From assembly GCA_947445035.1 (NCBI GenBank), contig CANFCK010000014.1:55178-119177 (forward strand): 64,000 nucleotides of DNA, written 5' to 3'. Each line of letters opens with the position of its first letter. Positions within the stretch are counted from its first letter, which is position 1. The notes beneath the pieces are model-generated. The model was not told the origin of the DNA. It saw only the letters and a list, made by a program, of their open reading frames with translations, and ran no database searches. This DNA is from Deltaproteobacteria bacterium (GTDB taxonomy: Bacteria > Myxococcota_A > UBA796 > SXON01). A program made the translations under genes and the position numbers. Of this stretch, positions 9,368 through 62,994 are shown piece by piece.

Positions 9368-12300
9368 TCAGTACGCTTCGAGGTTGTCGTACCCGCTGCG
9401 GCAGCCCGGCTCATCGGCGTCGGTGAAGCTGTTGATGTCGTTGTCGACGTCGTCATTGCACTGGTAGTCGCCCGAGAACGCCGCGGGATCCCCGCAGGCG
9501 ATGGTCTCGGTGTCGGTGATGGGCGTGGCGCAATCGGGGTCGAGCACGTCAACCCAGCCGTCGCAGTCGTCATCGAGGCCGTTGTTGCACGTGGTGGGCG
9601 GGTCGACCTCGTCGGCGTCGGCACCGCTTTCGCAGCCCCAGTCGCCAGCGTCGACGAGGCCGTCAGCGTCGTCGTCGAGGCCGTTGTTGCAGGCCTCGGT
9701 GCCGAGGCCGTCGTCCTCGAACAAGTCGGTGCCGGTGGTGCAGACCGGGTCGTCGGTGTCGGTCCAGCCGTCGCCGTCGTCGTCGTCTCCGTCCATACAC
9801 TCGGGGGTGTGGATCTCGTCGCCGTCGAGCGCGCTTTCGCACCCGGGGTCGTCGGCGTCGGTGAGGGTGTCGCTGTCGGTGTCGTCGCCGTCGTTGCAGA
9901 CGAAGTCGGTGTCGAGGCCCGCTTCTTCGCCGAGCCAGGCGCAGTCGGGGTCGTCGTTGTCGATCCAGCCGTCACCGTCGTCGTCGGTGCCGTCGACGCA
10001 GCTGGGGCCGCCGGCCGCGGACGGGGTTTCGAGGTTGTCGTCGGCGTCGAGGCAATCGCTGTCGTCAGCGTCTGTGGTGCCGTCGCCATCGTTGTCCAGG
10101 CCGTCGTGGCACTCGGCGGGCCCGACCGCGCCGCGTTCGGCGGTGGCGACCACGCAGTCGGGATCGTCACTGTCGGTCCACCCGTCGCCGTCGTTGTCGC
10201 TGCCGTCGGCGCAGACCGCGGCGGGGTCGTTCTCGGCGTCGTCGTTGCCGCTTTCGCAGCCGGGGTCGTCGGCGTCGGTGAGGCCGTCGCCGTCGTCGTC
10301 GAGGCCGTTGTTGCAGCCGAGCGCGGAGTAGCCGCTGGCGTCACAGTCGGGGTCGTCGTCGTCGGTCCAGCCGTCCCCGTCGTCGTCGCTGAGGTCGGTG
10401 CAGTCGCTGCCGACGCTTGCTTCGTCGTTGTCGAGGCCGTCGTCGCAGTCACTGTCGTCGGCGTCGGCCAAGCTGTCGCCGTCGTCATCGAGACCATCGC
10501 TACACGCGGAGGCCGCATAGCCGTCGCCTTCGGAGCCGCCGAGGGCACAGTCGGCGTCGTCTTCGTCGGTCCAGCCGTCGCCGTCGTCGTCGGCACCATC
10601 GGTGCACGAGGCGCTCCCCGCCGCTTCGTCGCCGTCGGTAGCGTCGTCACAGTCGACGTCGTCGGCATCGACGTCGCCATCGCTGTCGTCGTCTTCGCCG
10701 TCGTTGCACGCGCTGCTGCCAAAGCCGACCTCGTCGCCGTCGAGGGCGCAGTCGGGGTCTTCGTCGTCGGCCCAGCCATCACCATCGTCGTCGCTGCCGT
10801 TGTCGCAGTCGTCCGGGGTGGCGCTCTCGTCGTCGTCCCAGCCGACCGCGCAGGAGCTGTCGTCGGCATCGATGGTGCCGTCGTGGTCGTCGTCGATGCC
10901 GTTGTCGCACTCCCGGGTGCCGGCGCCGAGCTCATCGCCGACGGTGCCGCAGTCGACGTCGTCGCCGTCGGCCCAGCCATCGCTGTCGTCGTCGACGCCG
11001 TTGACGCAGTCGTCCGCGGCGGCGTCTTCGACCGGATCGACGGCGCTGGCGCAGCCCGTATCGGCCGCGTCGAGGATGTGGTTGCCGTCGTTGTCGGTGC
11101 CGTCGTTGCACTCGCCAGAGCCGAAGCCAAGCTCGTCGGTGCCGCCGTCGCAGTCGGGGTCGTCGGCGTCGCTCCACCCGTCGCCGTCGCTGTCGGCACC
11201 GTCGAAGCAGTCGCCGCTGGGGTCCTCTTCGTCTTCGTCGTCGGCGCTGGCACAGCCAGGATCGTCGGCGTCGATGGCGCCGTCGCTGTCGTCATCGTCG
11301 CCGTCGTTGCACACGGTGGTGCCGAAGTCCAGTTCGTCGTCACCGGTGGCACAGTCGGGGTCGTCCGCGTCGGTCCAGCCGTCCAGGTCGCCGTCGCTTC
11401 CGTCGGTGCAGTCGGTGGAGGCGCTGTCCTCGATGGTGTCTGCGGCCGAGGCGCAATCGAGGTCGTCGCGGTCGACGAGCCCGTCGCTGTCGTTGTCGGC
11501 GCCGTCGTTGCACCCGGCGTCCGAGAGCCCGGCCTCGGAGGTTCCGTCGTCGCAATCGGGGTCGTCGGCGTCCGTCCAATCGTCGGCGTCGTTGTCGAGC
11601 CCGTCGCTGCAGCCGGTGATCGGGTCTTCTTCGTCGTTGTCGTTGCCGGCGCTACAGCCGGGGTCGTTGCTGTCGGTCAGCCCGTCGCCGTCGTCGTCGC
11701 TGCCGTTGTTGCAGTCGTAGGTGCTGGTCGAGGGGGCTTCGGTGGGGCCCACCGAGCTTGCGCAGGCTGGGTCGTCGGTGTCGGTCCAGCCATCGCTGTC
11801 GTCGTCGAGTCCGTTGGCGCAGGCGTAGTCGGTCTCGTAGTCGTCGAGCGCCTCGCTGCACTCCGGATCGAGCCAATCGACGAGCCCATCGGGGGTGGCT
11901 TCGTTGTCGAGGCCGTCGTTGCACTCGGTCGCGCCAAAACCGATCTCGGTCAGGCCCGCGGTGCAGTCGGGGTCCTCGTCGTCGAGCCAACCGTCCCCAT
12001 CTTCATCGACCCCGTTGTCGCAGTCACTCGCTTCGGCCGGGGTGATCGCGAAAAAGCAGAGCGCGTCGCCAGCGTCAAACGTCAGGTCGCCGTCGTTGTC
12101 GACGCCGTCGTTGCATTCGCCGGTGCCGTAGCCGACCTCCTCGCTGCCGGTGGTGCAGTCGGGGTCGGCGCTGTCGGTCCACCCGTCGCCATCGCCGTCA
12201 ACGCTGTCGTTGCAGCCGTCGGTCTCGTCGTCGTCGAGCGCGTCGTCGCACGCGGCATCGTCGGCGTCGCGCTGCCCGTCGGCGTCGTTGTCTTCGTTGT

Positions 12301-13633
12301 CGTTGCAGGCAGTCTCGCCGAAGCTACGCTCGGTGCCGAGGCTGTCGCAGTCGGGGTCGGCGGCGTCGGTCCAGTCGTCGCCGTCGTTGTCGTAGCCGTC
12401 TTCGCAATCGCCCAGCTCAGAGGCGTCGTAGGCGTTGGCGCAGTCTTTGTCGAAGGCGTCCGCAAAGCCGTCGCCGTCGTCGTCGGCGCCGTTGCTGCAC
12501 GCGTCCGCGTTGTCGATGCCGCCTTCGTCGTCGTCGAGCAGGCTGGCGCAGCCCGGGTCGTTCAGGTCGGTCCAGCCGTCACCGTCGTTGTCGAGGTCGT
12601 CGGCACAACGGTTGAGCTCGCTGTCGTCGGTGGCGGACTCGCAGCCGGCATCGTCGTTGTCGATTTTGCCGTCAAGGTCGTCGTCGATGCCGTTGTTGCA
12701 CAAGGTGTCGCTGATGGAGATCTCGACGTCGCCGACGTAGCAGTCGGGGTCATCTTCGTCGGCCCAGCCGTCGCCGTCGTTGTCGAGGCCGTCGGCGCAG
12801 GGGGGGGTGAACTCGTCGTCGTCGAGCGCGGAGTCGCATTGGCGATCGTCGGCGTCGAGGTCGCCGTCGAGGTCGTTGTCCTCGTTGTCGTTACACTGCG
12901 TCGGCCCAAAGCCCAGCTCGTCGTCCAGGTCCGCGCAGTCGGGATCGTCGAGGTCGCTCCACCCGTCAACGTCGTTGTCCTTGCCGTCTTCGCAGGGGCC
13001 CGCCTCGGCCAGCCCGAAGGCATCCTCACAGCGGTCGTCGGTGCCGTCTTTGCCGCCGTCGCTGTCGTTGTCGATGCCGTCATTGCACTCGTTGAGTCCG
13101 AAGCCGGCCTCGGCCGTGCCTTCGAGGCAATCCGGGTCGGCCGCGTCTACGAAGCCGTCGTTGTCGCCATCGCGGAGGTCGTGGCACCCATCGACGGGCG
13201 TCTCCAGCGGGACCATCGTGAAGCGAATATTCTGGACCTCGTCCACGACGAACGCCAGCGGCCCGTAGGTTGCCGACCCCACGGTGAGCACGTCGTCTTC
13301 CCACCCGGCGCCGCTGAGCGAGAAGGAGGCGTCGCTGTTTCCTTGGTGGAGTTCGACCGAGGCGAAGGCGCCGTCGCGCACGACGACGTTGACGCGGCAT
13401 TCCAGCGCGGCGTCGTCGAGCACCCAGTCGGCGAGGCAATCGTCGTCAGCGGTGGTGAGCGCGACGCCGTCGGCGTTGGTGTAGGGCTCGGACGGGTCGA
13501 CGAAGAGCGCGAACGTACTGCCCGCGGCAAGCGCCTCGTCGCCGTCGATGGTCACGACAATGGCGGTGCGGTCGTCACCCTCGGAGGTGCAGGCGGCGAG
13601 GAGGAAGGAGACAAACAAGGAGCGAGCCATCAT
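9368..13633 (-). CDS. Giant polyanionic lipoprotein of ~1,420 aa. It has a ~190-aa N-terminal domain followed by ~50 tandem ~22-aa Cys-bracketed Asp-rich motifs (C-[NE]-D-G-x-D-N-D-x-D-G-x-x-D-x-x-D-x-x-C), which resemble TSP type-3 / MopE-like putative Ca2+/metal-binding repeats.
   Basis: - The likely start is the internal ATG ATG at 13633 (MMARSLFVSFLLAAC, lipobox LAAC) rather than the ORF-track start at 13753.
- That start overlaps the stop of the upstream PEGA gene (ATGA).
- The repeats alternate two unit types, e.g. ECNDGIDNDSDGGKDGTDDRC and GPCEDGKDNDVDGWSDLDDPDC.
- The DNA is a GAC/GTC-rich near-periodic array. Confidence 0.8.
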   Translation of the reverse strand: MMARSLFVSFLLAACTSEGDDRTAIVVTIDGDEALAAGSTFALFVDPSEPYTNADGVALTTADDDCLADWVLDDAALECRVNVVVRDGAFASVELHQGNSDASFSLSGAGWEDDVLTVGSATYGPLAFVVDEVQNIRFTMVPLETPVDGCHDLRDGDNDGFVDAADPDCLEGTAEAGFGLNECNDGIDNDSDGGKDGTDDRCEDAFGLAEAGPCEDGKDNDVDGWSDLDDPDCADLDDELGFGPTQCNDNEDNDLDGDLDADDRQCDSALDDDEFTPPCADGLDNDGDGWADEDDPDCYVGDVEISISDTLCNNGIDDDLDGKIDNDDAGCESATDDSELNRCADDLDNDGDGWTDLNDPGCASLLDDDEGGIDNADACSNGADDDGDGFADAFDKDCANAYDASELGDCEDGYDNDGDDWTDAADPDCDSLGTERSFGETACNDNEDNDADGQRDADDAACDDALDDDETDGCNDSVDGDGDGWTDSADPDCTTGSEEVGYGTGECNDGVDNDGDLTFDAGDALCFFAITPAEASDCDNGVDEDGDGWLDDEDPDCTAGLTEIGFGATECNDGLDNEATPDGLVDWLDPECSEALDDYETDYACANGLDDDSDGWTDTDDPACASSVGPTEAPSTSTYDCNNGSDDDGDGLTDSNDPGCSAGNDNDEEDPITGCSDGLDNDADDWTDADDPDCDDGTSEAGLSDAGCNDGADNDSDGLVDRDDLDCASAADTIEDSASTDCTDGSDGDLDGWTDADDPDCATGDDELDFGTTVCNDGDDDDSDGAIDADDPGCASADDEDEEDPSGDCFDGADSDGDGWSDADDPDCDGGTDELGFGSGECNDGTDNDGNHILDAADTGCASAVDPVEDAAADDCVNGVDDDSDGWADGDDVDCGTVGDELGAGTRECDNGIDDDHDGTIDADDSSCAVGWDDDESATPDDCDNGSDDDGDGWADDEDPDCALDGDEVGFGSSACNDGEDDDSDGDVDADDVDCDDATDGDEAAGSASCTDGADDDGDGWTDEDDADCALGGSEGDGYAASACSDGLDDDGDSLADADDSDCDDGLDNDEASVGSDCTDLSDDDGDGWTDDDDPDCDASGYSALGCNNGLDDDGDGLTDADDPGCESGNDDAENDPAAVCADGSDNDGDGWTDSDDPDCVVATAERGAVGPAECHDGLDNDGDGTTDADDSDCLDADDNLETPSAAGGPSCVDGTDDDGDGWIDNDDPDCAWLGEEAGLDTDFVCNDGDDTDSDTLTDADDPGCESALDGDEIHTPECMDGDDDDGDGWTDTDDPVCTTGTDLFEDDGLGTEACNNGLDDDADGLVDAGDWGCESGADADEVDPPTTCNNGLDDDCDGWVDVLDPDCATPITDTETIACGDPAAFSGDYQCNDDVDNDINSFTDADEPGCRSGYDNLEAY

Positions 13634-14679
13634 GGGAGCGTCACGACTACGTCGCCTTCGGGCGCCGGTGCGGGTTGGTTGGCGGCGACAACGACGGCGG
13701 CGGTGGTCCCGGCCGCGACGGCGCCGCCCCCGACTGCGGCCCAGAAGCCCCACTGTTGGGTGAGCGGCTTCGCCTCGACGACCGTCTTTTCTGTGGTGCG
13801 GGCGAGGACAGATCCTGAGCTTGGAACCTCGACCCTGCCGCTGACCGAACGACTGTCGGTAGTGACGGTGATCTCCGTCTTGCCGCGGCCCACCCCCACG
13901 ACCTTCACCGTTGTGCCCCGACCGACCTCGACCCCGTTGAAGAACACGGTGGCGTCGGGGTTCCCTGTGCTGACGTTCACTTCGGCTCCGCCTTTGTTCA
14001 TCGTCGCATCGACGGTGCCGCGGATGCCGGCGGTTGTGTCCACCTTCTTGTAGGTCGTGGCGTAGCCGTCGAGCGTGACCTCCACGCCGTGCACACCTGG
14101 GGCGATGTCGCGCACCTTGACCGGCGTGACGCCGAGGTCCTTGCCGTCGAGGCGGACCGTGGCCCCCGCTGGGTTGGAGGTGACCGCGACCACGCCGACA
14201 CTGGACTCCAGTGCGATGGCGACGAGGTAGTTGCGCCCCTTGACCAGGGGGATCGTGCCGCTACCGGCTTCGAAGTTCGGCGCCTGTCCCTGCCACACGA
14301 GGCTGCCGGCGCCGGGCGATGGGAGGCGGACGGGAACCGGAAAGGTCTGGCCGTTGACGCTGACGGTGGTCCCGACCGCGCCGGTGAACTCGACCGAGCC
14401 GGGTCCCGCCGTCATCGCGGCGGTCAGCTCGAGCGTCTTGCCGGCCTGCACCTCGATCTGGCGGACGAACGGCTCGAAGTTGTCCGCGACGATGCGGAGC
14501 TTGTGCGCCCCGACCGCCACATACTTGGTGAGCGGTGCGGCGCCGAGCATCGTGCCGTCGAGGTACACCTCCGCCCCTGCCGCCGAAGCGGAGATCTTCA
14601 CGGCCCCGGTGGGGTCGGCCGCAGACGCCGGGAGCACGAGGCCGACTAAAAAGAGCCACAACGCGAGCAGGGACATGGT
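13630..14679 (-). CDS. PEGA-domain secreted protein, translationally coupled to the downstream giant acidic lipoprotein
   Basis: The start at 14679 gives MSLLALWLFLVGLVLPASAADP, a signal peptide. There are at least three PEGA-like units (VYLDGTMLGAAPL..., VRLDGKDLGVTPVKVRDIAPGVHGVEVTLDGY, VFFNGVEVGRGT). The stop TGA overlaps the start of the next gene (CCATGATGG). Confidence 0.8.
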   Translation of the reverse strand, partial: TMSLLALWLFLVGLVLPASAADPTGAVKISASAAGAEVYLDGTMLGAAPLTKYVAVGAHKLRIVADNFEPFVRQIEVQAGKTLELTAAMTAGPGSVEFTGAVGTTVSVNGQTFPVPVRLPSPGAGSLVWQGQAPNFEAGSGTIPLVKGRNYLVAIALESSVGVVAVTSNPAGATVRLDGKDLGVTPVKVRDIAPGVHGVEVTLDGYATTYKKVDTTAGIRGTVDATMNKGGAEVNVSTGNPDATVFFNGVEVGRGTTVKVVGVGRGKTEITVTTDSRSVSGRVEVPSSGSVLARTTEKTVVEAKPLTQQWGFWAAVGGGAVAAGTTAAVVVAANQPAPAPEGDVVVTLP

Positions 14680-14746
14680 GTGGCAGGGTACCACGACAGC
14701 GCGGCACTCTGAAACGTTTCGGGGCCTGCGGCATTGGAGCGGCGGC

Positions 14747-16039
14747 ATGCATCACGTCATCGTCGGGAACTCGATTGCGGGCATCGAAGCGGCGTTGGTC
14801 ATTCGTCGTCGGGACGAGTCGGCGCGGATCACCCTGGTTTCGGCCGAATCGGACCACCCCTTCGCTCGCACGGCGATGATGTACGTCTTCTGTGGGCAGT
14901 TGCGGCAAGCGGACACCGAGTTTTACGATCGGGGACTCTACGAGCGGATGCGATTCGAGCGCGTGCGCGACCGCGTCGTGGGCGTTGACTGCGCCGGCCG
15001 CCGCGTGCTTCTGGAGCGGGTCGGGGCGCTCGGCTACGACCGTCTGCTCCTGGCCATCGGGAGCGCGGCGCGTCGGTTGACCCTCGCCGGCGCCTATGAT
15101 GGACCCGGTGTCTTCCACTACGTGTCCCTCCAGGATCACGTTGCCCTCGATGTCGCAGCGAAGGCGGGGCTGCGAGCCGCGGTGATTGGCGGGGGGCTCA
15201 TCGGGGTGGAGGTCGCGGAGATTTTGCACGCGCGTGGGCTACGCGTGCACTGGTTGGTGCGCGACGCGTGGACGTGGCCAGTGGCGCTGGACCGCGACGA
15301 GGCCGCGATCGTCGAGGCGCACGTGCGAGATCACGGGGTGGACGTTCGAGCGGCGACGGAGGTGACCAGGCTCGATCGCGGCTCGGCGTTGAAGCTGACG
15401 CTTGGCGTGGAGGAGCCGCTGGAGGTCGACCTCGTCGTGGGCGCGGTCGGCGTGGTGCCCAACACCCGGTTTCTGGTGGGCTCGGACGTTGCGCTTTCGG
15501 TGGACGGGGGGGTCGAGACCCGCGCCGACTTGTCCAGCACGAGCGTGCCCGACGTTTACGCCGCTGGGGACTGCGCAACGGTGACTTGGGCGGACGGGAG
15601 CCGCCGCCCTGAGACCCTGTGGTACACCGCACGGGACCAGGGCCGAGCGGCGGGGGCCGCGATGGTCGGAGATTCGGTGAACTACCGTCGTAGCACCTGG
15701 TATAACTCGGCGAAGTTCTTCGATCTCGAGTACACCACTGCGGGCTACGTGCCGCTGGCCGAGCCGGCGCGACGTGATCCGACTCCGGGCCACTGGCAGA
15801 CGTGGTTTCAGCAGCATCCAAACGAAGCTGCGAGCCTACGAATCGTGGCGAAGGACGACCGCGTGGTGGGCTTCAACGCGCTCGGGCGACGGTGGAGCAC
15901 CGAGGTCTGGTTGCGGTGGATCCACGAGCGGCGGACGTTGGCGTGGGTACACCATCACCTCGCGGAGTCGAGCTTCGACGAGGAATTCATCGAGCCGTTC
16001 CCGGTGCTTCCCTCGGCGATTTTGCACGAGGGCGCCTGA
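14747..16039 (+). CDS. FAD/NAD(P)-dependent pyridine nucleotide-disulfide-family oxidoreductase with a ~110-aa C-terminal extension
   Basis: The start at 14747 gives MHHVIVGNSIAGIEAALVIRR, a Rossmann GxGxxG-type motif. A second dinucleotide-binding motif is present (AAVIGGGLIGVEVAE), along with ...VYAAGDCA. The gene is divergent from the PEGA gene by a 67-bp intergenic region. Confidence 0.8.
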   Translation: MHHVIVGNSIAGIEAALVIRRRDESARITLVSAESDHPFARTAMMYVFCGQLRQADTEFYDRGLYERMRFERVRDRVVGVDCAGRRVLLERVGALGYDRLLLAIGSAARRLTLAGAYDGPGVFHYVSLQDHVALDVAAKAGLRAAVIGGGLIGVEVAEILHARGLRVHWLVRDAWTWPVALDRDEAAIVEAHVRDHGVDVRAATEVTRLDRGSALKLTLGVEEPLEVDLVVGAVGVVPNTRFLVGSDVALSVDGGVETRADLSSTSVPDVYAAGDCATVTWADGSRRPETLWYTARDQGRAAGAAMVGDSVNYRRSTWYNSAKFFDLEYTTAGYVPLAEPARRDPTPGHWQTWFQQHPNEAASLRIVAKDDRVVGFNALGRRWSTEVWLRWIHERRTLAWVHHHLAESSFDEEFIEPFPVLPSAILHEGA

Positions 16040-17391
16040 TGCAAGCCGGCCTGCTCGACACCTGGAAACGGCCATCCCGGGCCCGCGGCGCAACCGCCTG
16101 GGGCGCAGCGGGGATTCTCACAAGCTTCTACCTGCTCTTGTACCTGCCGGAGAGCATGTTCACTCCCAATTTTCCGGACGTACTCAGCCCCGTGGCCGAG
16201 GCGCTGCACCTGCCGTCGAAGTGGTTTCTGTACGGGTTGCTCTACTCGATTGCCATGGTCGTGGGCGGCTTCTTCATGCTGCGGAAGCACGGCAACAGCC
16301 GCTACCATCGCATCCGCACGGTGACGGTGGTCACGGTGCAGATCGTGCTTGGGTTCTCGTTGCCCTTGGCCCTGAGTATCGCCGGAAAACCGGAGTTGTA
16401 CCTAAGCTACGTGTGGCCGCTGTCCTACGACAAGCTCTTTCCCGACACCCTGGCAGCCATGCCCGCGGCCGCGGCGCTGTGGTTCATCTTCGCGTCGTTG
16501 GTGCTGTTTCCGGCGTTGGCGTGGCGGTACGGCAAGCGCTTCTACTGCTCGTGGGTGTGTGGCTGCGGCGGTCTGGCCGAGACCTTCGGCGACGGGTGGC
16601 GCCACCTTTCCGACAAGTCGACGAAGGCGTGGCGGTTCGAACAATGGAGCGTCCACGGAGTCCTGGTCCTCGTTCTCGTCATGACCGGGCTGGTGATCGC
16701 CGATGGGATCAGCCGCTCGGGAATGGTGGTGGCGGCGGGCGGTGCCGAGGGGGAGCGCGTGGCGTTGTCGGCGCGGCTGGCGCAGGAGGCGACCTCGCTG
16801 ACCGAGTTGTCCGTCGCAGAGCTGGCGCCGCGGGCGGAGGGGATCCGTCGTGACGTAGAGGCCACGTTGCCGCCGACGTGGGTCATCGACAAGCTCGCTC
16901 CCGTCGAGGTTGCAGCGACGGCGGGCGACGCAGTGGCCATGGCCTCGGCGGTGAAGGACCTAGCCTACGGAGTGATGCCGGGCTCGCCGCTCGGGCGCGC
17001 AGCGGGGACGGTGAAGGGGCTGTACGCGTTCTTCATCGGGGCGCTTTTCTCGGGAGTCGCCGGCGTGGGCCTTTACCCGCTGATGGGCACGCGGGTCTGG
17101 TGCCGTTTCGGCTGTCCGATGGCCGCGATCCTGGGCCTGGTCCAGAAGCTCGGCCGCTTCCGCATCGCCGTGAAAAAGGACATGTGCATCAGCTGTGGGA
17201 ACTGCTCGGCCTACTGCGAGATGGGCATCGACGTTCGCGCCTACGCGATGGCCAACCTGGATATCCGTCGCGCCAGCTGCGTCGGCTGTGGCATGTGCGC
17301 CCACGTCTGCCCCCGAGGGGTTTTGCGGCTGACGAACGAGGCCGACGTCGGCCCCGGGGAACGCGTTGGGGAGTGGGTTGTGGAGATTTGA
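16039..17391 (+). CDS. Membrane-bound 4Fe-4S polyferredoxin (CcoG/NapH-like), coupled to the upstream oxidoreductase
   Basis: The ATG at 16039 overlaps the upstream stop (TGATG). The protein has multiple TM helices, a 'FYCSWVCGCGG' Cys cluster, 'VWCRFGCPMAAILG', and two ferredoxin-type CxxCxxCxxxCP motifs (CISCGNCSAYCE; CVGCGMCAHVCP). Confidence 0.8.
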   Translation: MQAGLLDTWKRPSRARGATAWGAAGILTSFYLLLYLPESMFTPNFPDVLSPVAEALHLPSKWFLYGLLYSIAMVVGGFFMLRKHGNSRYHRIRTVTVVTVQIVLGFSLPLALSIAGKPELYLSYVWPLSYDKLFPDTLAAMPAAAALWFIFASLVLFPALAWRYGKRFYCSWVCGCGGLAETFGDGWRHLSDKSTKAWRFEQWSVHGVLVLVLVMTGLVIADGISRSGMVVAAGGAEGERVALSARLAQEATSLTELSVAELAPRAEGIRRDVEATLPPTWVIDKLAPVEVAATAGDAVAMASAVKDLAYGVMPGSPLGRAAGTVKGLYAFFIGALFSGVAGVGLYPLMGTRVWCRFGCPMAAILGLVQKLGRFRIAVKKDMCISCGNCSAYCEMGIDVRAYAMANLDIRRASCVGCGMCAHVCPRGVLRLTNEADVGPGERVGEWVVEI

Positions 17392-56008: not shown

Positions 56009-56563
56009 TCAGAATGTCCCGCCCACCGTGACCCCGTTCGGCGAGGGGAGCACCGCCACCTTGCTGCCGCGCCGATCGTGGATGCCGAACTGGATCGGGC
56101 CGCCCAGGCAGCCGAGGGTGCTGCCGGCCACGAAGAGGATCGGGCCGAGGGTGTAGTCCCCGCTCGCCGCCAGGAGGGGAAACGTCGCCATCAGGCCCAG
56201 TCCGACGTACCCGAGCACCAGGCCGGTGGCCGGGGTCCCTTTGGGCGCCTTGCCCCAGGTGTAGGTCGTGGTGAAAAGCGCACCAGGCGCGGCGGAGAGG
56301 CCCAGCACGGCCCCGCTCACCAAAAAGACGGTGCCTACCGTGAAGCCGGCCCCAAAGGACGAGTCCGAGGCCATCACGCCGCCGCCGATGAGCGCCAGCC
56401 CCGCGCCGACCCCCTCGGCGATCACAAAGCCCTTGCCGATGCGATGCGACACCCAGAACGGCCCGCCCGGCCGGTCGGTCGGGAGCGTGTCGGCGGTGAC
56501 GGCCGGCTGCTCGCGAAGGCTCGACAGCGTGGGGAGCGGCAGGTTCTCTTCGGCCTGCGCCAT
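56009..56563 (-). CDS. Hypothetical Gly-rich polytopic membrane protein (184 aa)
   Basis: An internal start gives MAQAEENLPLPTLSS.... Four or five hydrophobic segments follow (GVGAGLALIGGGVMA, FTVGTVFLVSGAVLGLSAA, GLVLGYVGLGLMATFPLLAA, ILFVAGSTLGCLGG). The longer ORF-track call is an off-frame overlap of selD. Confidence 0.45.
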   Translation of the reverse strand: MAQAEENLPLPTLSSLREQPAVTADTLPTDRPGGPFWVSHRIGKGFVIAEGVGAGLALIGGGVMASDSSFGAGFTVGTVFLVSGAVLGLSAAPGALFTTTYTWGKAPKGTPATGLVLGYVGLGLMATFPLLAASGDYTLGPILFVAGSTLGCLGGPIQFGIHDRRGSKVAVLPSPNGVTVGGTF

Positions 56564-56589
56564 CGCGAGACGGAAGAGCGCAGGGGTGA

Positions 56590-57651
56590 TCACCGAGGCG
56601 CCGTGGCCATCACGCGCAACCTCGCCTCCCCATCCTCGGCGCGAAGCCGCCCCACCACCGCAGCCGCGAGCGCACCCGCCACGTTCAACGCCTCGATGAC
56701 GGAGGCGAGCTTCTCCTCGGGCACCGCGAGCAGGAGCCCCCCCGACGTTTGCGGATCCGCGAGGATCGGCTTCGCCAGCGCGTCCAGCTCTGCAGCCCAC
56801 GAGACGTTCGGCCCGTAGTGCGCAAGGTTGCGCCCAGTTGCCCCGGGAACCGCGCCCGCGGCGATGTGATCGCGCGCCCCAGGCAAACTCGGCAGCCGGT
56901 CGAACCACAGGTCGGCGCCCAACCCCGAGCCGGCCGCCACCTCGTGCGTATGGCCCAGGAGCCCGAAGCCGGTGATGTCGGTGGCGCAGATGAGCCCCGC
57001 CGCGACCGCCACTTCCGAGGGGACCCGGTTCAGGAAGGTGGTGACGCGGATGAACTCGGCGTACTGATCCTCGGTGATGAGCTGCTTTTTCACGGCGTGG
57101 GCCAGCGTGCCGCTGCCGAGCGGTTTGGTAAGGACAAGGTAGTCCCCCGCCTTGCCCGCGTCGTTGCGCAAGAGGCGATCGGGGTGGACGACTCCGGTCA
57201 CCGACAGCCCGAACTTCAGTTCCTCGTCGTCGATGCTGTGCCCCCCCGCGATGATGATTCCCGCGTCTGCGCAGACCTCTGCCGCTCCACCGAGGATGTC
57301 CGCCATGACTTCGGGGGCGAGCTTCTTGAGCGGGAGCCCCACGATCCCCAGCGCGAGGATCGGTTTTCCGCCCATCGCGTACACGTCTGAGATGCTGTTT
57401 GCCGCCGCGATCCGTCCGTAATCTCGGGCGTCGTCGACCACGGGCATGAAGAAGTCGAGCGTCTGTACCACCGCGAGGTCGTCCCGCAGCTTGTAGACGG
57501 CGGCGTCGTCGCTGGTGGTGATGCCCACCAAAAGCTCCGCCGGCCCGCGCCGCGGGAGCTTCTTGAGGATGCGTTCCAGGTCCGCCGGACCCAGCTTGCA
57601 GCCTCACCCACCGCCGTGGGAGTACTGGGTGAGGCGGAGACGATCGGGCAT
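56590..57651 (-). CDS. selD: Selenide, water dikinase (selenophosphate synthetase) SelD, a selenoprotein with an in-frame UGA (Sec) at codon 16
   Basis: The ORF track truncates the gene at 57531 (MVGITTSDDAAVYKL...). Reading upstream in the same frame gives ATG(57651)-MPDRLRLTQYSHGGG-TGA(57606..57604)-GCKLGPADLERILKKLP.... 'GGUGCK' is the conserved SelD active-site loop in which Sec/Cys occurs. Downstream lie ...SDVYAMGG and other SelD/PurM-fold motifs. Confidence 0.85.
57576..57603 (-). promoter_or_regulatory. Candidate bacterial SECIS-like hairpin immediately 3' of the selD UGA
   Basis: The minus-strand mRNA reads UGA-GGCUGCAAG-CUGGGUCCGGCGGACCUGG. The last 19 nt can form an ~8-bp stem (GGUCC/GGACC core plus G-U pairs) with a short GGC loop, starting ~9-12 nt after the UGA. 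Confidence 0.4.
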
Positions 57652-57660
57652 GGGCGTAGC

Positions 57661-59052
57661 TTAGCCGGCCGAGGGACCGAGCACATCGGCGATCGCGCTG
57701 CCGACGGCCTGGGCGAGGAGGGCAGACTCGGCTGGCTCCATGACCAACGGGGGCATGACCATCACCGTGTCGCCCAAGTTGCGCACGATGGCGCCATGCC
57801 GACGCGTCGCGAGGCTGACGCGGTGGCCGACGCGCGCTGCCGCCACAAACGGGGACCCGTCCGCCTCTGCGAGCACGATGGCGCCCATCATTCCGGCGTG
57901 ACGCACCTCCTTGATACACGGATGTGTCACCGCTCGAAGCGCGGTCCCAAGCGCGGTAGCGCGCACCGGTAGCCGCTCCAGGACCCTCTCGTCGGCGTAC
58001 GCGTCGAGGGTGGCGTTGGCGGCCGCGATGGCCAGCGGGTTGCCGGTGTAGGTGTGGCCGTGAAAGAAGGTGCGGTGTTCGGTGTACGGACCGCGAAAGG
58101 CGTCGTAGATGGCCTCCGTGGTGAGCGTTGCTGCCAGGGGCAGGTACCCTCCGGTGATCGCTTTGGCGAGGCAGAGAAAGTCTGGCTTCACCGAAGCTTG
58201 TTCGATGGCGAACATCGTCCCCAGCCGCCCGAACCCCGTGGCCACCTCGTCGACGACCACGAAGACCCCGTGGGCGCGGGCGAGGTCGACGAGCGCGCGC
58301 AGGAACGCCGGCGTGTGGGTGCGCATTCCCCCCGCCCCTTGGACCAGCGGCTCCACCACCAGCGCGACGAGCTCAGCGCCGTGGCGCTCAAACAAACTCT
58401 GCGCGGCTGCGAGGCAGACCGCCTCCTCGCCTGCCGCCGCCCGCTCCGGCGAAGGAATCCGCAGCGCTTCGAACAAAAGCGGCCGGTAGATCCCGTGGAA
58501 GAGCTCAATCCCGCCCAGTGATACACTCCCAACTGTATCACCGTGGTACGCGTCGGTCAGCGCGACAAAGCGGGTGCGGCCGGTCTCGCCCAGCTGTTGC
58601 TTGGCCTGAAACGCCATCTTCAGCGCCACCTCGACGGCAGTGCTGCCCGAGTCGCTGTAGAAGACGCGGTCGAGGCCGGTGAGGGCGGTCAATCGTTCTG
58701 CATGCTCGATGACACCGGGGTGAGAGAGCCCAAGCATGGTCGTGTGTGCGATACGTCCGAGTTGGTCGCGCACCGCCGCGTCCAGACGGGGGTGCCGATG
58801 GCCGAGCACATTGCACCACAACGACGCGGTTCCATCGAGGTAGCGGCGGCCGTCGGTGTCGAAAAGATACACGCCGTCGCCACGCTCGATCACCAGGTTC
58901 TCAGTCTGCTTCTCCCACTCGTCCGCTTGGGTGAACGGGTGCCAGAGTGCGGCATAATCGCGGGGGAGCCAACGTTTTGGAACCTGGGCCGCCACCCACG
59001 ACGCCCCGGGCGGATCTTGGGAGGTGACCGGCGGACGACGTGGGCGGCGCAT
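57661..59052 (-). CDS. bioA: Adenosylmethionine-8-amino-7-oxononanoate aminotransferase BioA (class III PLP aminotransferase)
   Basis: 'WHPFTQ...LVIERGDGVYLFDTDGRRYLDGTASLWCNVLGHRHP' is the BioA N-terminus. The PLP-lysine region is 'FLCLAKAITGGYLPLAA'. The stop lies 9 nt before the selD ATG. Confidence 0.85.
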   Translation of the reverse strand: MRRPRRPPVTSQDPPGASWVAAQVPKRWLPRDYAALWHPFTQADEWEKQTENLVIERGDGVYLFDTDGRRYLDGTASLWCNVLGHRHPRLDAAVRDQLGRIAHTTMLGLSHPGVIEHAERLTALTGLDRVFYSDSGSTAVEVALKMAFQAKQQLGETGRTRFVALTDAYHGDTVGSVSLGGIELFHGIYRPLLFEALRIPSPERAAAGEEAVCLAAAQSLFERHGAELVALVVEPLVQGAGGMRTHTPAFLRALVDLARAHGVFVVVDEVATGFGRLGTMFAIEQASVKPDFLCLAKAITGGYLPLAATLTTEAIYDAFRGPYTEHRTFFHGHTYTGNPLAIAAANATLDAYADERVLERLPVRATALGTALRAVTHPCIKEVRHAGMMGAIVLAEADGSPFVAAARVGHRVSLATRRHGAIVRNLGDTVMVMPPLVMEPAESALLAQAVGSAIADVLGPSAG

Positions 59053-61740: not shown

Positions 61741-62994
61741 ATGGCTCTTGTCCCTGTCCACGGCGGTCTCGACGCCCCTGTCGATCGCATCCTGCCCTTC
61801 TCGAAGAAGGCGGCGCTCCTCGCTGAATCGGCCGGGATGCCCCGCATCTTGGTCACCGACGCGGATTTGTCGGTGGTGTACCGCATCGCCGACGGCACGC
61901 TGTCGCCGCTGACCGGCTTCATGGACGAGACCACCTACAACCACGTCCTCGACAACAAGAACGTCGTGCGCAACGGCGTGGCTTACGCGTGGGCCATCCC
62001 TCTCGCCTTGCCGGTGACGGAGGCCGAGGCGGCTTCGCTCAAGCCGGGGATGATCGCGGCCTTGGTCGACTCGACCGGCGCGGTGTTCGGCACCCTCGCC
62101 GTCAGCAGCATCTTCACGTGGAACAAGGCTCGTTACGTCGAGCAGGTCTACGGCACCTCGCGGATGGATCACCCTGGCGCGGCCATCGCAACCGGCGACG
62201 AGCGCGGTACCTTGGTCGGCGGGGACCTCTCGGTGCTTCCCGCCCGTCGCAACACTGAGTACGGGGACCTGCTCCTTTCTCCGGCGCGCACCCGGCAGAT
62301 GATCGGGGAGAAGAAGTGGACCGCGGCCCTGGCGTTCCAGACCCGCAACCCGCTCCATCGTGCCCACGAGTATGCTCTCGTCTACGGCGCCGAGCAGCTC
62401 ACCCGCGCCGGCAACTACACCGGTGTCGTGCTCAACCCCCTGGTCGGGCAGCTCAAGAACGACGATGTCGACGCCTCAACCCGTGTTCGCACGTACCGCA
62501 TGCTGCGAGACCGGCGTCTGCTGGGTGAAGGGGACAGCGACACCTCGGTCTGGGAGGCTGCGGGCTACAATCTCAACGACGTCTTCGAGCTGGTGTGTCT
62601 GGACATGAAGATGTTCTACGGCGGCCCCTCCGAAGCGATCATGCACAGCATCTATCGGCAGAACCACGGATTCAGCCACATCGTCATCGGCAGGAAGCAT
62701 GCCGACGCGCCGTACTTCGACAAGTCCGCCATCTGGGGTGACTTCGACGCCCAGGAGATCTTCGACAAGCTGCCCGGTGCGCTGTCCACTCGCCCCGTCA
62801 AGGTTGGATTCGCCGCCTTCTACGAGAGTCTCGGCCGGGTTGATCTGACCGAGCGCCACAAGGGTGAAGCACCCTACAGCATCTCCGGCACCCTGATGCG
62901 TGAGCAGCTCGTAGCCGGCGAGCGCCCTGATGCCCGGATCATCCGCGGCGAGGTCGCTGACGTGCTGATCGAGGCGTATCGGGCCAAGGGGTAG
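61741..62994 (+). CDS. sat: Sulfate adenylyltransferase (ATP sulfurylase)
   Basis: 417 aa. The 'QTRNPLHRAHE' and 'GRKHADAPYFD'-type HxxH/GRD motifs of the ATP-sulfurylase family are present. A PUA-like N-terminus is present. Confidence 0.9.
   Translation: MALVPVHGGLDAPVDRILPFSKKAALLAESAGMPRILVTDADLSVVYRIADGTLSPLTGFMDETTYNHVLDNKNVVRNGVAYAWAIPLALPVTEAEAASLKPGMIAALVDSTGAVFGTLAVSSIFTWNKARYVEQVYGTSRMDHPGAAIATGDERGTLVGGDLSVLPARRNTEYGDLLLSPARTRQMIGEKKWTAALAFQTRNPLHRAHEYALVYGAEQLTRAGNYTGVVLNPLVGQLKNDDVDASTRVRTYRMLRDRRLLGEGDSDTSVWEAAGYNLNDVFELVCLDMKMFYGGPSEAIMHSIYRQNHGFSHIVIGRKHADAPYFDKSAIWGDFDAQEIFDKLPGALSTRPVKVGFAAFYESLGRVDLTERHKGEAPYSISGTLMREQLVAGERPDARIIRGEVADVLIEAYRAKG

What the first reader, a model, noticed from the sequence alone, without database searches (positions are those of the whole stretch)
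56590..57651. selD is a selenoprotein: an in-frame UGA (Sec16) with a SECIS-like hairpin, missed by the ORF track
The six-frame track starts SelD at 57531 (MVGITTSD...), which leaves out the catalytic N-terminus. Reading the minus strand upstream in the same frame gives ATG (57651) - MPDRLRLTQYSHGGG - TGA - GCKLGPADLERILKKLP, which is the conserved SelD 'GG(U/C)GCK' loop with TGA at the Sec position. Directly 3' of the UGA, GGCUGCAAG-CUGGGUCCGGCGGACCUGG can fold into a stem-loop in the position expected for a bacterial SECIS. This implies the organism carries the full Sec machinery (selA, selB, selC) and probably other selenoproteins, and that gene callers will truncate or split this locus. 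The gene sits 9 nt after bioA in an unusual bioA-selD-membrane protein arrangement.
Basis: partly seen in the sequence, partly recalled or inferred. Interest (0 to 1): 0.6.

Follow-up and report, generated by a model that had tools for sequence, protein, structure and literature searches.

The report
Selenocysteine-encoding selD gene, truncated by gene callers
This is an ordinary member of a well-known class: a selenophosphate synthetase (SelD) gene whose catalytic residue is selenocysteine, encoded by an in-frame UGA and followed by the usual bacterial recoding hairpin, and automatic gene callers cut off its N-terminus.

Summary
On the minus strand an ATG at 57651 opens a 353-codon SelD reading frame. 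Codon 16 is TGA (57606-57604), aligned with catalytic Cys17 of E. coli SelD. The full-length protein passes both NCBIfam SelD equivalog models from profile position 5.

The TGA is not an error. It occurs in four independent assemblies, in relatives at 88%, 77% and 73% identity, and in over 100 metagenomic SelD genes. The 15 upstream codons show 10 synonymous versus 1 conservative change.

The hairpin (8-bp stem, GGC loop, 17 nt after the UGA) meets all four published bacterial SECIS criteria. Folding energy alone is not decisive, but comparison is:
- Sec-type SelDs place a hairpin loop 17 or 20 nt after the UGA in 87/104 cases, Cys-type in 2/78.
- With the peptide KLGPADL held constant, Sec-type genes use stem-forming GGU and CCG codons (14/15) and Cys-type never do (0/5).

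Database gene calls for this protein and its nearest relatives are all truncated.

Not shown: selA, selB and tRNA-Sec are absent from about 77 kb examined, so the Sec machinery is inferred. Sec-containing SelD is long known (19% of prokaryotic SelD genes). Low interest, apart from the annotation fix.

The parts
56590..57651 (-). Full-length selD coding sequence: 353 codons including Sec16, plus the stop codon
   Evidence: Translation. NCBIfam SelD equivalogs NF002098 (418 bits, cutoff 299, profile 5-346 of 347) and TIGR00476 (394 bits, cutoff 125). E. coli SelD 3u0o at E = 2.9e-88.
57649..57651 (-). True ATG start codon of selD
   Evidence: It is the only start codon between the in-frame bioA stop and the UGA. 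The same MPDR(L/I)RLTQYSHGGG N-terminus is found in L085, L086 and L182.
57604..57606 (-). In-frame UGA, codon 16, read as selenocysteine
   Evidence: It aligns with Cys17 of E. coli SelD. It is identical in 4 independent assemblies and conserved in relatives at 88%, 77% and 73% identity and in more than 100 metagenomic SelD genes.
57576..57594 (-). bSECIS upper stem-loop: 5' arm CUGGGUCC (57594-57587), loop GGC (57586-57584), 3' arm GGACCUGG (57583-57576)
   Evidence: MFE structure. It meets all four bSECIS criteria (model quoted). 91.7% of cells are paired across 15 Sec-type LGPxDL genes. The stem-forming codons GGU and CCG occur in 14/15 Sec-type and 0/5 Cys-type genes with the same peptide.
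57564..57606 (-). Extended 43-nt hairpin that includes the UGA: lower stem UGAGG/CCUCA and UGC/GCA
   Evidence: Native -23.0 kcal/mol against -14.3 +/- 3.4 for synonymous recodings, 1.2% as stable. The lower helix is 66.7% paired across the subgroup and is kept only in close relatives.
57528..57533 (-). Internal TTG (57531) and GTG (57528) that ORF and gene callers wrongly use as the start
   Evidence: the ORF listing starts the ORF at 57531. Database protein P0001 (312 aa, MGITTSDD...) starts at the GTG. A start here would remove the catalytic loop.
57661..59052 (-). bioA (adenosylmethionine-8-amino-7-oxononanoate transaminase), upstream neighbour; its stop lies 9 nt before the selD ATG
   Evidence: TIGR00508 at 479 bits, cutoff 405. 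The adjacency is conserved only in this clade.
56009..56593 (-). Downstream 194-aa hydrophobic protein; its GTG start overlaps the selD stop (GTGA)
   Evidence: Called as a gene in L081-L085. No Pfam or NCBIfam family. Three hydrophobic stretches with Kyte-Doolittle 19-residue mean above 1.6. Present at 68% identity in L085 and absent from L086 and L182.

Best explanation
The locus encodes a full-length selenophosphate synthetase (SelD; selenide, water dikinase) of 353 residues. Residue 16, in the flexible glycine-rich N-terminal loop (HGGG-U-GCK), is selenocysteine encoded by UGA.

Inferred mechanism, from the established bacterial Sec pathway. The mRNA stem-loop that starts 10 nt after the UGA (8-bp stem, apical C-GGC-G) acts as a bacterial SECIS. 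SelB carrying GTP and Sec-tRNA(Sec) binds its apical part and delivers Sec when the UGA reaches the ribosomal A site. The lower helix, which pairs the UGA itself, is unwound by the ribosome. Without recoding, translation ends after 15 residues.

The gene probably starts by translational coupling to bioA, whose stop lies 9 nt upstream, and it overlaps the start of a small membrane-protein gene.

Shown here: the UGA, its conservation, translation of the upstream codons, SelD family membership, and selection on synonymous sites to keep the hairpin. Inferred: SelB-dependent Sec insertion, and the presence of selA, selB and selC elsewhere in the genome.
For: - **SelD membership, N-terminus included:**. 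U16 aligns with E. coli Cys17 and K19 with Lys20.
- **The upstream codons are translated:** 10 synonymous against 1 conservative nonsynonymous codon change in three relatives.
- **UGA is not reassigned genome-wide:** TGA ends 13 of 27 supported genes in the window.
- **The hairpin meets the bSECIS model:** 3-nt loop, 8-bp stem, G at loop positions 1-2, 17-nt spacing, -9.7 kcal/mol (model in PMC13188914).
- **The hairpin is selected, not a by-product of the peptide:** 1.2% of synonymous recodings are as stable. The first hairpin loop lies 17 or 20 nt after the codon in 87/104 Sec-type against 2/78 Cys-type SelDs, with a consensus stem in all four Sec-type peptide subgroups and none in Cys-type. 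With the peptide KLGPADL held fixed, Gly is GGU in 14/15 against 0/5 and Pro is CCG in 14/15 against 0/5. GGU makes up only 11% of Gly codons in this window.
- **Literature:** 19% of prokaryotic SelD genes encode Sec, always at the same position (PMC4561486). SelD and FdhA are the most widespread bacterial selenoproteins (PMC1794560).
Against: - No selA, selB or tRNA-Sec in the window, in the 3.5 kb to its right (L081) or in the 10 kb to its left (L209). The machinery needed for the mechanism is therefore unverified for this genome.
- No Rfam family matches the hairpin.
- Formal covariation is weak: one pair changed on both sides, and 22/500 shuffles reach the covariation score. The stem lies over a conserved peptide.
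- Energy against dinucleotide shuffles is unremarkable (z = -0.79), and 4.2% of arbitrary TGA triplets in the window are followed by an equally good model hairpin.
- The Sec-versus-Cys statistics are not corrected for relatedness of the sequences.
Confidence: 0.93

Rival explanations
1. The UGA is a true stop. The gene is a decaying or N-terminally truncated selD that starts at the internal GTG/TTG (57528/57531), as gene callers annotate it.
For: Every automatic gene call for this protein and its nearest relatives starts downstream of the UGA. A GGAG lies 6 nt before the internal GTG. No Sec machinery was found in about 77 kb.
Against: A product starting there lacks the catalytic loop, meaning the residues equivalent to Cys17 and Lys20. 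The 15 codons upstream of the UGA are under purifying selection, 10 synonymous against 1 nonsynonymous change. The UGA sits at the identical codon in more than 100 lineages, which a decaying gene would not show. The GGAG is part of the conserved P-x-E-L-L-V-G coding motif, which Cys-type SelDs also carry.
Confidence: 0.03
2. The UGA is read through, but not by SelB and Sec (for example near-cognate Trp or Cys insertion). The hairpin is then a by-product of the conserved KLGPADL peptide rather than a SECIS.
For: The stem overlaps a conserved peptide. Cys-type genes with this peptide also form small alternative hairpins of -7 to -9 kcal/mol. Covariation is weak. The Sec machinery was not observed.
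Against: Synonymous sites are chosen to build the stem only in UGA-containing genes: GGU and CCG in 14/15 against 0/5. Only 1.2% of recodings are as stable as the native. The loop position is fixed at +17 or +20 in 87/104 Sec-type against 2/78 Cys-type genes. The loop C-GGC-G fits the commonest bSECIS apical pattern, N1-G-[G/U]-N-N2.
Confidence: 0.03
3. The TGA is a sequencing or assembly error for TGC or TGT (Cys).
For: It is a single-base difference from a Cys codon, and close Cys-type homologues exist (P0016-P0019, 64-65% identity).
Against: The TGA is identical in four assemblies from four different samples (L081-L084) and is conserved in diverged relatives whose neighbouring codons carry synonymous changes.
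Confidence: 0.005

Closest known systems
Sec-containing bacterial SelD (for example in Deltaproteobacteria such as Anaeromyxobacter and Geobacter, in Clostridia and in Pasteurellales), as catalogued by Zhang et al. 2006 (PMC1794560) and Mariotti et al. 2015 (PMC4561486)
   Same: The family is the same. The Sec position is the same: the published surveys report it 'always in the same position', and here it aligns with E. coli Cys17. The UGA is followed directly by an in-coding-region stem-loop, and automatic annotation truncates the gene in the same way.
   Different: Nothing of substance. This copy comes from an uncultured high-GC lineage and sits in a clade-specific ATP sulfurylase / bioA / selD neighbourhood rather than next to selA, selB or ybbB.
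E. coli SelD (PDB 3u0o), the Cys-type enzyme
   Same: The alignment runs over residues 4-336 at E = 2.9e-88. It shares the SHG(A/G)G-x-GCK loop, Lys20 and the AIRS/AIRS_C architecture.
   Different: E. coli has Cys17 where this gene has UGA (Sec). Cys-type genes lack the conserved hairpin 17-20 nt downstream.
Bacterial SECIS consensus model (bSECISearch model, summarised in PMC13188914 Fig. 2A) and the E. coli fdhF SECIS
   Same: The stem-loop lies directly 3' of the UGA inside the coding region. All four model criteria are met. As I recall for fdhF, the lower helix includes the UGA.
   Different: The primary sequence is unrelated to fdhF. The loop is a GGC triloop, or C-GGC-G if the closing pair opens. 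The element is constrained by the overlapping KLGPADLE coding sequence.
Aquifex aeolicus SelD (PDB 2yye/2zod)
   Same: It aligns over residues 8-321, and the loop residue aligned with U16 is Cys in the crystallised protein. The downstream peptide K-V-G-P-G-D-L is of the same LGPxDL type. From memory, unverified here: the native A. aeolicus enzyme is itself a selenoprotein that was crystallised as a Sec-to-Cys mutant.
   Different: It is much more distant (E = 5e-53), and the loop reads G-C-A-A-K rather than G-U-G-C-K.

Membership tests
SelD (selenide, water dikinase; NCBIfam NF002098 / TIGR00476) | Whole-protein score above the curated equivalog cutoff | tested here: met
   NF002098 at 418.3 bits (cutoff 299) and TIGR00476 at 393.9 bits (cutoff 125), with U replaced by C in the query.
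SelD (selenide, water dikinase; NCBIfam NF002098 / TIGR00476) | N-terminal glycine-rich loop with Sec/Cys and Lys at the positions of E. coli Cys17 and Lys20 | tested here: met
   The pairwise HMMER alignment with 3u0o places query residue 16 on Cys17 and K19 on Lys20.
SelD (selenide, water dikinase; NCBIfam NF002098 / TIGR00476) | AIRS (PF00586) plus AIRS_C (PF02769) two-domain architecture | tested here: met
   Precomputed Pfam domains for P0001, which is 100% identical, and for its gene in L081.
SelD (selenide, water dikinase; NCBIfam NF002098 / TIGR00476) | ATP-dependent synthesis of selenophosphate from selenide | not testable with these tools
   Requires an enzyme assay.
Sec-containing SelD (selenoprotein) | In-frame UGA aligned with the catalytic Cys of Cys-type homologues | tested here: met
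Sec-containing SelD (selenoprotein) | UGA conserved in orthologues, with the upstream segment under purifying selection | tested here: met
   In one search, 10 synonymous against 1 nonsynonymous codon change.
Sec-containing SelD (selenoprotein) | The genome encodes the Sec-decoding machinery (selA, selB, tRNA-Sec) | not testable with these tools
   None was found in the window, in the 3.5 kb to its right or in the 10 kb to its left. The rest of the genome could not be reached. Linkage to selD is not expected: tRNA-Sec lay near selD in only 1 of 41 related loci.
Sec-containing SelD (selenoprotein) | Selenium is actually incorporated into the protein | not testable with these tools
   Requires 75Se labelling or mass spectrometry.
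Bacterial SECIS (consensus model, PMC13188914 Fig. 2A) | Apical loop of 3-9 nt on an upper stem of 4-16 bp | tested here: met
   Loop GGC (3 nt) and a stem of 8 contiguous pairs, 2 of them G-U.
Bacterial SECIS (consensus model, PMC13188914 Fig. 2A) | G in one of the first two loop positions | tested here: met
   The loop is G-G-C. If the closing pair is counted, C-GGC-G fits N1-G-[G|U]-N-N2.
Bacterial SECIS (consensus model, PMC13188914 Fig. 2A) | 16-37 nt between the UGA and the apical loop | tested here: met
   17 nt.
Bacterial SECIS (consensus model, PMC13188914 Fig. 2A) | MFE of -7.5 kcal/mol or lower | tested here: met
   -9.7 kcal/mol for the 19-nt hairpin and -23.0 for the extended 45 nt. 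For comparison, 11.5% of arbitrary TGA triplets in the window also pass all four criteria.
Bacterial SECIS (consensus model, PMC13188914 Fig. 2A) | The structure is maintained by selection, shown by comparison | tested here: met
   Contrast between Sec-type and Cys-type genes in loop position (87/104 against 2/78), contrast in codon choice with the peptide fixed and the recoding control. Classical covariation is weak.
Bacterial SECIS (consensus model, PMC13188914 Fig. 2A) | Binding by SelB and dependence of read-through on the hairpin | not testable with these tools
   Requires an experiment.
Rfam RNA families | Match to a curated covariance model | tested here: inconclusive
   There was no hit at gathering score and only chance-level hits at E up to 10. 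No SECIS family appeared among the hits, so this neither supports nor counts against a SECIS.
BioA (TIGR00508), upstream neighbour | Score above the equivalog cutoff | tested here: met
   479 bits against a cutoff of 405.

The most novel reading that the evidence does not exclude
The tightly packed bioA-selD-194-aa unit may be a functional module: a 9-nt gap before selD and a 4-nt overlap after it, next to a divergently oriented ATP sulfurylase gene and near a xanthine-dehydrogenase-type molybdoenzyme. In that reading the uncharacterised hydrophobic 194-aa protein, or the ATP sulfurylase, would supply or deliver selenium to SelD. The in vivo selenium donor for SelD is still unresolved (PMC13188914). 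My evidence does not exclude this, but it gives little support. The 194-aa gene is present only in the two closest lineages and is replaced by an ABC ATPase gene in the relative at 73% identity. The bioA/Sat adjacency is confined to one clade.
Probability: 0.05. Interest if true: 0.5.

Novelty: already known. Interest (0 to 1): 0.15.

Why it matters
The main value is as an annotation correction. The database proteins for this gene and for all of its nearest relatives (P0001-P0015 and others) lack the catalytic loop because gene callers stop at the UGA. Homology-based inference from those entries therefore starts from truncated sequences. A Sec-type SelD also marks the organism as a likely selenocysteine user, which helps when interpreting other split or truncated genes in the same genome. 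It opens no new biological question: Sec-containing SelD and its in-coding-region SECIS have been catalogued for decades.

Tried and rejected
- **Rfam:** the scan of the whole window at gathering score and of 57450-57700 at E up to 10 gave nothing relevant.
- **Genome-collection scan:** the tool back-translated my Cys-substituted query (HGGGCGCK). I kept those loci as the Cys-type control set.
- **Fold energy against dinucleotide shuffles:** not significant. I replaced it with a synonymous-recoding control.
- **First bSECIS-criteria script:** it relied on the global MFE fold and wrongly rejected the native element, so its numbers are discarded. One search diagnosed the fault and one search is the corrected local-hairpin version. 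That version is stricter than the real bSECISearch, since only 19% of true Sec-type SelDs pass it. I use it only for the window element and the chance rate.
- **Search for the Sec machinery:** ARAGORN on the window, Pfam on 30 ORFs, the L081 gene table and a walk 10 kb to the left through SecA found none.
- **tRNA-Sec near selD in 41 related loci:** found only in L135, so it is uninformative for this organism.
- **Other selenoprotein genes in the window:** once calibrated, the scan recovers selD and two further TGAs, at 970 (-) and 14754 (-). Both lie antisense to, or upstream of, supported genes, so I rejected them.
- **Organism identity from cluster members:** no names were returned. The only hint is P0006 (74% identity), labelled 'Deltaproteobacteria bacterium'.
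- **A general functional link between bioA and selD:** rejected, because the adjacency occurs only in this clade among 194 SelD loci.

Full report
**1. The observation**

The minus strand of 56590-57651 translates as MPDRLRLTQYSHGGG*GCKLGPADLERILKKLP..., running on to a terminal TGA at 56592-56590 with a single internal stop. The ATG is at 57651-57649 and the internal TGA at 57606-57604, which is codon 16. The upstream gene ends in TAA at 57663-57661, 9 nt before the ATG and in the same frame. No other start codon lies between them, so 57651 is the only possible start for the extended frame. Every sequence-level statement in the finding is correct.

**2. Is it SelD, and is the TGA at the Sec position?**

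With the TGA read as Cys, the 353-aa protein scores 418 bits on NCBIfam NF002098 (cutoff 299), covering profile positions 5-346 of 347. It scores 394 bits on TIGR00476 (cutoff 125). The N-terminal extension therefore belongs to the protein. Against solved structures the best hit is E. coli SelD (3u0o, E = 2.9e-88). The alignment places window residue 16 on Cys17 and K19 on Lys20 within SHG(A/G)G-C-GCK.

**3. Is the TGA real?**

The identical sequence, TGA included, occurs in four assemblies from four different samples (L081-L084). The same codon is TGA in relatives whose SelD is 88% (L085), 77% (L182) and 73% (L086-L088) identical.

The 15 codons upstream of the TGA differ from the window by 10 synonymous codon changes and one conservative replacement (Leu to Ile) across these three relatives. 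That is the signature of a translated segment.

TGA is also the commonest ordinary stop codon in the window, ending 13 of 27 supported genes, so UGA is not reassigned genome-wide. A sequencing error and a decaying pseudogene are both excluded.

**4. The hairpin**

Nine nucleotides after the UGA, CUGGGUCC-GGC-GGACCUGG (57594-57576) forms an 8-bp stem with a GGC triloop. In the window and its closest relatives a lower helix (UGAGG/CCUCA and UGC/GCA) extends the structure to 43 nt and pairs the UGA itself.

The published bacterial SECIS model requires four things (PMC13188914, Fig. 2A legend), and the element meets all of them:

| Criterion | Model | Window |
|---|---|---|
| Apical loop | 3-9 nt | 3 nt (GGC) |
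| Upper stem | 4-16 bp | 8 bp |
| G in the first two loop positions | required | G at positions 1 and 2 |
| UGA-to-loop spacing | 16-37 nt | 17 nt |
| MFE | -7.5 kcal/mol or lower | -9.7 kcal/mol |

These criteria are not very specific in a 68% GC genome. Of all TGA triplets in the window, 11.5% pass and 4.2% score as well as the native. The 68-nt fold is also unremarkable against dinucleotide shuffles (z = -0.79).

The stem lies over the conserved peptide K-L-G-P-A-D-L-E, so the real question is whether the peptide alone forces the pairing. Three controls say it does not.

- **Synonymous recoding.** Recoding the peptide with the window's own codon usage gives -14.3 +/- 3.4 kcal/mol against -23.0 for the native. 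Only 1.2% of recodings are as stable.
- **Loop position.** Among 104 Sec-type and 78 Cys-type SelD genes, the first hairpin's loop lies exactly 17 or 20 nt after the codon in 87 Sec-type genes but only 2 Cys-type genes. RNAalifold finds a consensus stem at that place in each of four Sec-type subgroups with different downstream peptides (LGPxDL, xTPALL, LPxxLL, xAPSVL) and none in the Cys-type set.
- **Peptide held fixed.** With KLGPADL constant, Sec-type genes use the stem-forming codons GGU (Gly) and CCG (Pro) in 14 of 15 cases. GGU makes up only 11% of Gly codons in this window. Five Cys-type genes use GGC, GGA or GGG and always CCC, and none forms this stem.

On the 15-sequence LGPxDL alignment the upper helix is 91.7% paired, against 33-54% when the 3' partners are slid by 1-3 columns. 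One pair changes on both sides (C-G to U-A twice, and to G-C once). The lower helix is 66.7% paired and holds only among close relatives. Classical covariation is therefore weak, as expected for a stem inside a conserved coding segment, and the Sec-versus-Cys contrast carries the argument. None of these statistics is corrected for relatedness of the sequences.

**5. Gene-caller behaviour**

The database protein identical to this gene (P0001, 312 aa) starts at the internal GTG at 57528, and a second call in the same cluster has 316 aa. All of the nearest clusters (P0001-P0015, P0020-P0025 and others) start downstream of the GCK loop, several at the Leu codon of 'LGPADL' read as Met. Every full-length relative reads GGGCGCK.

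**6. What could not be shown**

The window contains no tRNA and no selA or selB. Its genes are a flagellar cluster plus SecA, AspRS, SodA, ATP sulfurylase, BioA and others. The 3.5 kb to the right holds a xanthine-dehydrogenase-type enzyme. The 10 kb to the left holds pilMNOPQ, aroK and aroB.

A calibrated scan for other in-frame UGA genes recovers selD and only two antisense artefacts. [quoted passage not shown] Linkage is not expected in any case: tRNA-Sec lay near selD in only one of 41 related loci.

**7. Neighbourhood**

The upstream gene passes the BioA equivalog cutoff (TIGR00508, 479 against 405 bits). The downstream 194-aa gene overlaps the selD stop (GTGA), has no family match and has three hydrophobic stretches, so 'membrane protein' is plausible.

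ATP sulfurylase (divergent), BioA and SelD are adjacent only in this clade (L081-L088 and L182) among 194 SelD loci. The 194-aa gene is present only in the two closest lineages. This is synteny of one lineage and not evidence for a functional link between bioA and selD.

**8. Comparison with what is known**

SelD is a classical selenoprotein family. In a survey of prokaryotic genomes, 19% of SelD genes encoded Sec, 'always in the same position' (PMC4561486). SelD and FdhA are 'the most widespread selenoproteins' in bacteria, with Sec-type SelD listed for many Deltaproteobacteria and Clostridia (PMC1794560). [quoted passage not shown] The window's gene is an ordinary member in the position of its Sec residue, in its SECIS type and in the way annotation truncates it.

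**9. Verdict**

The finding is confirmed and its interpretation supported, apart from the untested inference about selA, selB and selC and the overstatement about the bioA arrangement. It is already-known biology. The practical result is a corrected gene model: 56590-57651 (-), with Sec at codon 16.

Noticed in passing
Loci L089-L208 (Sec-type SelD) against L001-L080 (Cys-type): Across four Sec-type SelD subgroups with different downstream peptides, the apical loop of the first hairpin lies exactly 17 or 20 nt after the UGA (87/104). Cys-type genes show no preferred position (2/78 at those positions). This register is tighter than the 16-37 nt allowed by the general bSECIS model.
   Followed up: partly
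window 61741-62994 (+), 57661-59052 (-), 56590-57651 (-); L081 1-2230; L086 3498-7221: Synteny conserved within this clade: a xanthine-dehydrogenase-type molybdoenzyme (Fer2 / MoCoBD / FAD_binding_5), a divergent ATP sulfurylase, bioA and selD. Selenium-dependent molybdenum hydroxylases and selenate activation by ATP sulfurylase make this suggestive. However, no yqeB or yqeC markers were seen, and the arrangement is confined to one lineage.
   Followed up: partly
window 9368-14260 (-): A very large ORF (1421 aa as called in L209, up to 1630 aa from stop to stop) with coding-like GC3 of 0.85 has no Pfam hit at E up to 1e-5. It sits next to a PEGA-domain protein.
   Followed up: no
window 22850-50251, and L209 1803-7006 (left of the window): The window holds a large flagellar cluster (FlgI, FlhB, FliR, FliP, FliO, FliN, FliL, FlgE, FlgD, FliI, FliH, FliG, FliF). 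It lies beside type IV pilus genes pilMNOPQ, several MopE/FG-GAP repeat proteins and three SPFH/Band_7 proteins. The only taxonomic hint is 'Deltaproteobacteria bacterium' for a SelD at 74% identity (P0006). The organism was not identified.
   Followed up: no
L001 (CAMAXZ010000027.1): This record is titled 'MAG: Klebsiella pneumoniae', yet it carries a GC-rich Cys-type SelD 65% identical to the window's, far closer than the other loci that scan returned. The contig is probably mis-binned or the record mislabelled.
   Followed up: no
window 14231-17391 (+): A Pyr_redox_2 flavoprotein is followed by a NapH-like 4Fe-4S protein. The flavoprotein has a far sub-threshold match to TIGR03169 'Nterm_to_SelD' (67.6 bits against a cutoff of 310). 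That is general family similarity only and no evidence of a selenium link.
   Followed up: no
window 970 (-) and 14754 (-): Two further in-frame TGAs have coding-like GC3 on both sides. Both lie antisense to supported genes (the TPR protein and the Pyr_redox_2 protein) or upstream of the called PEGA start. They are artefacts of high GC content, not selenoprotein candidates.
   Followed up: yes
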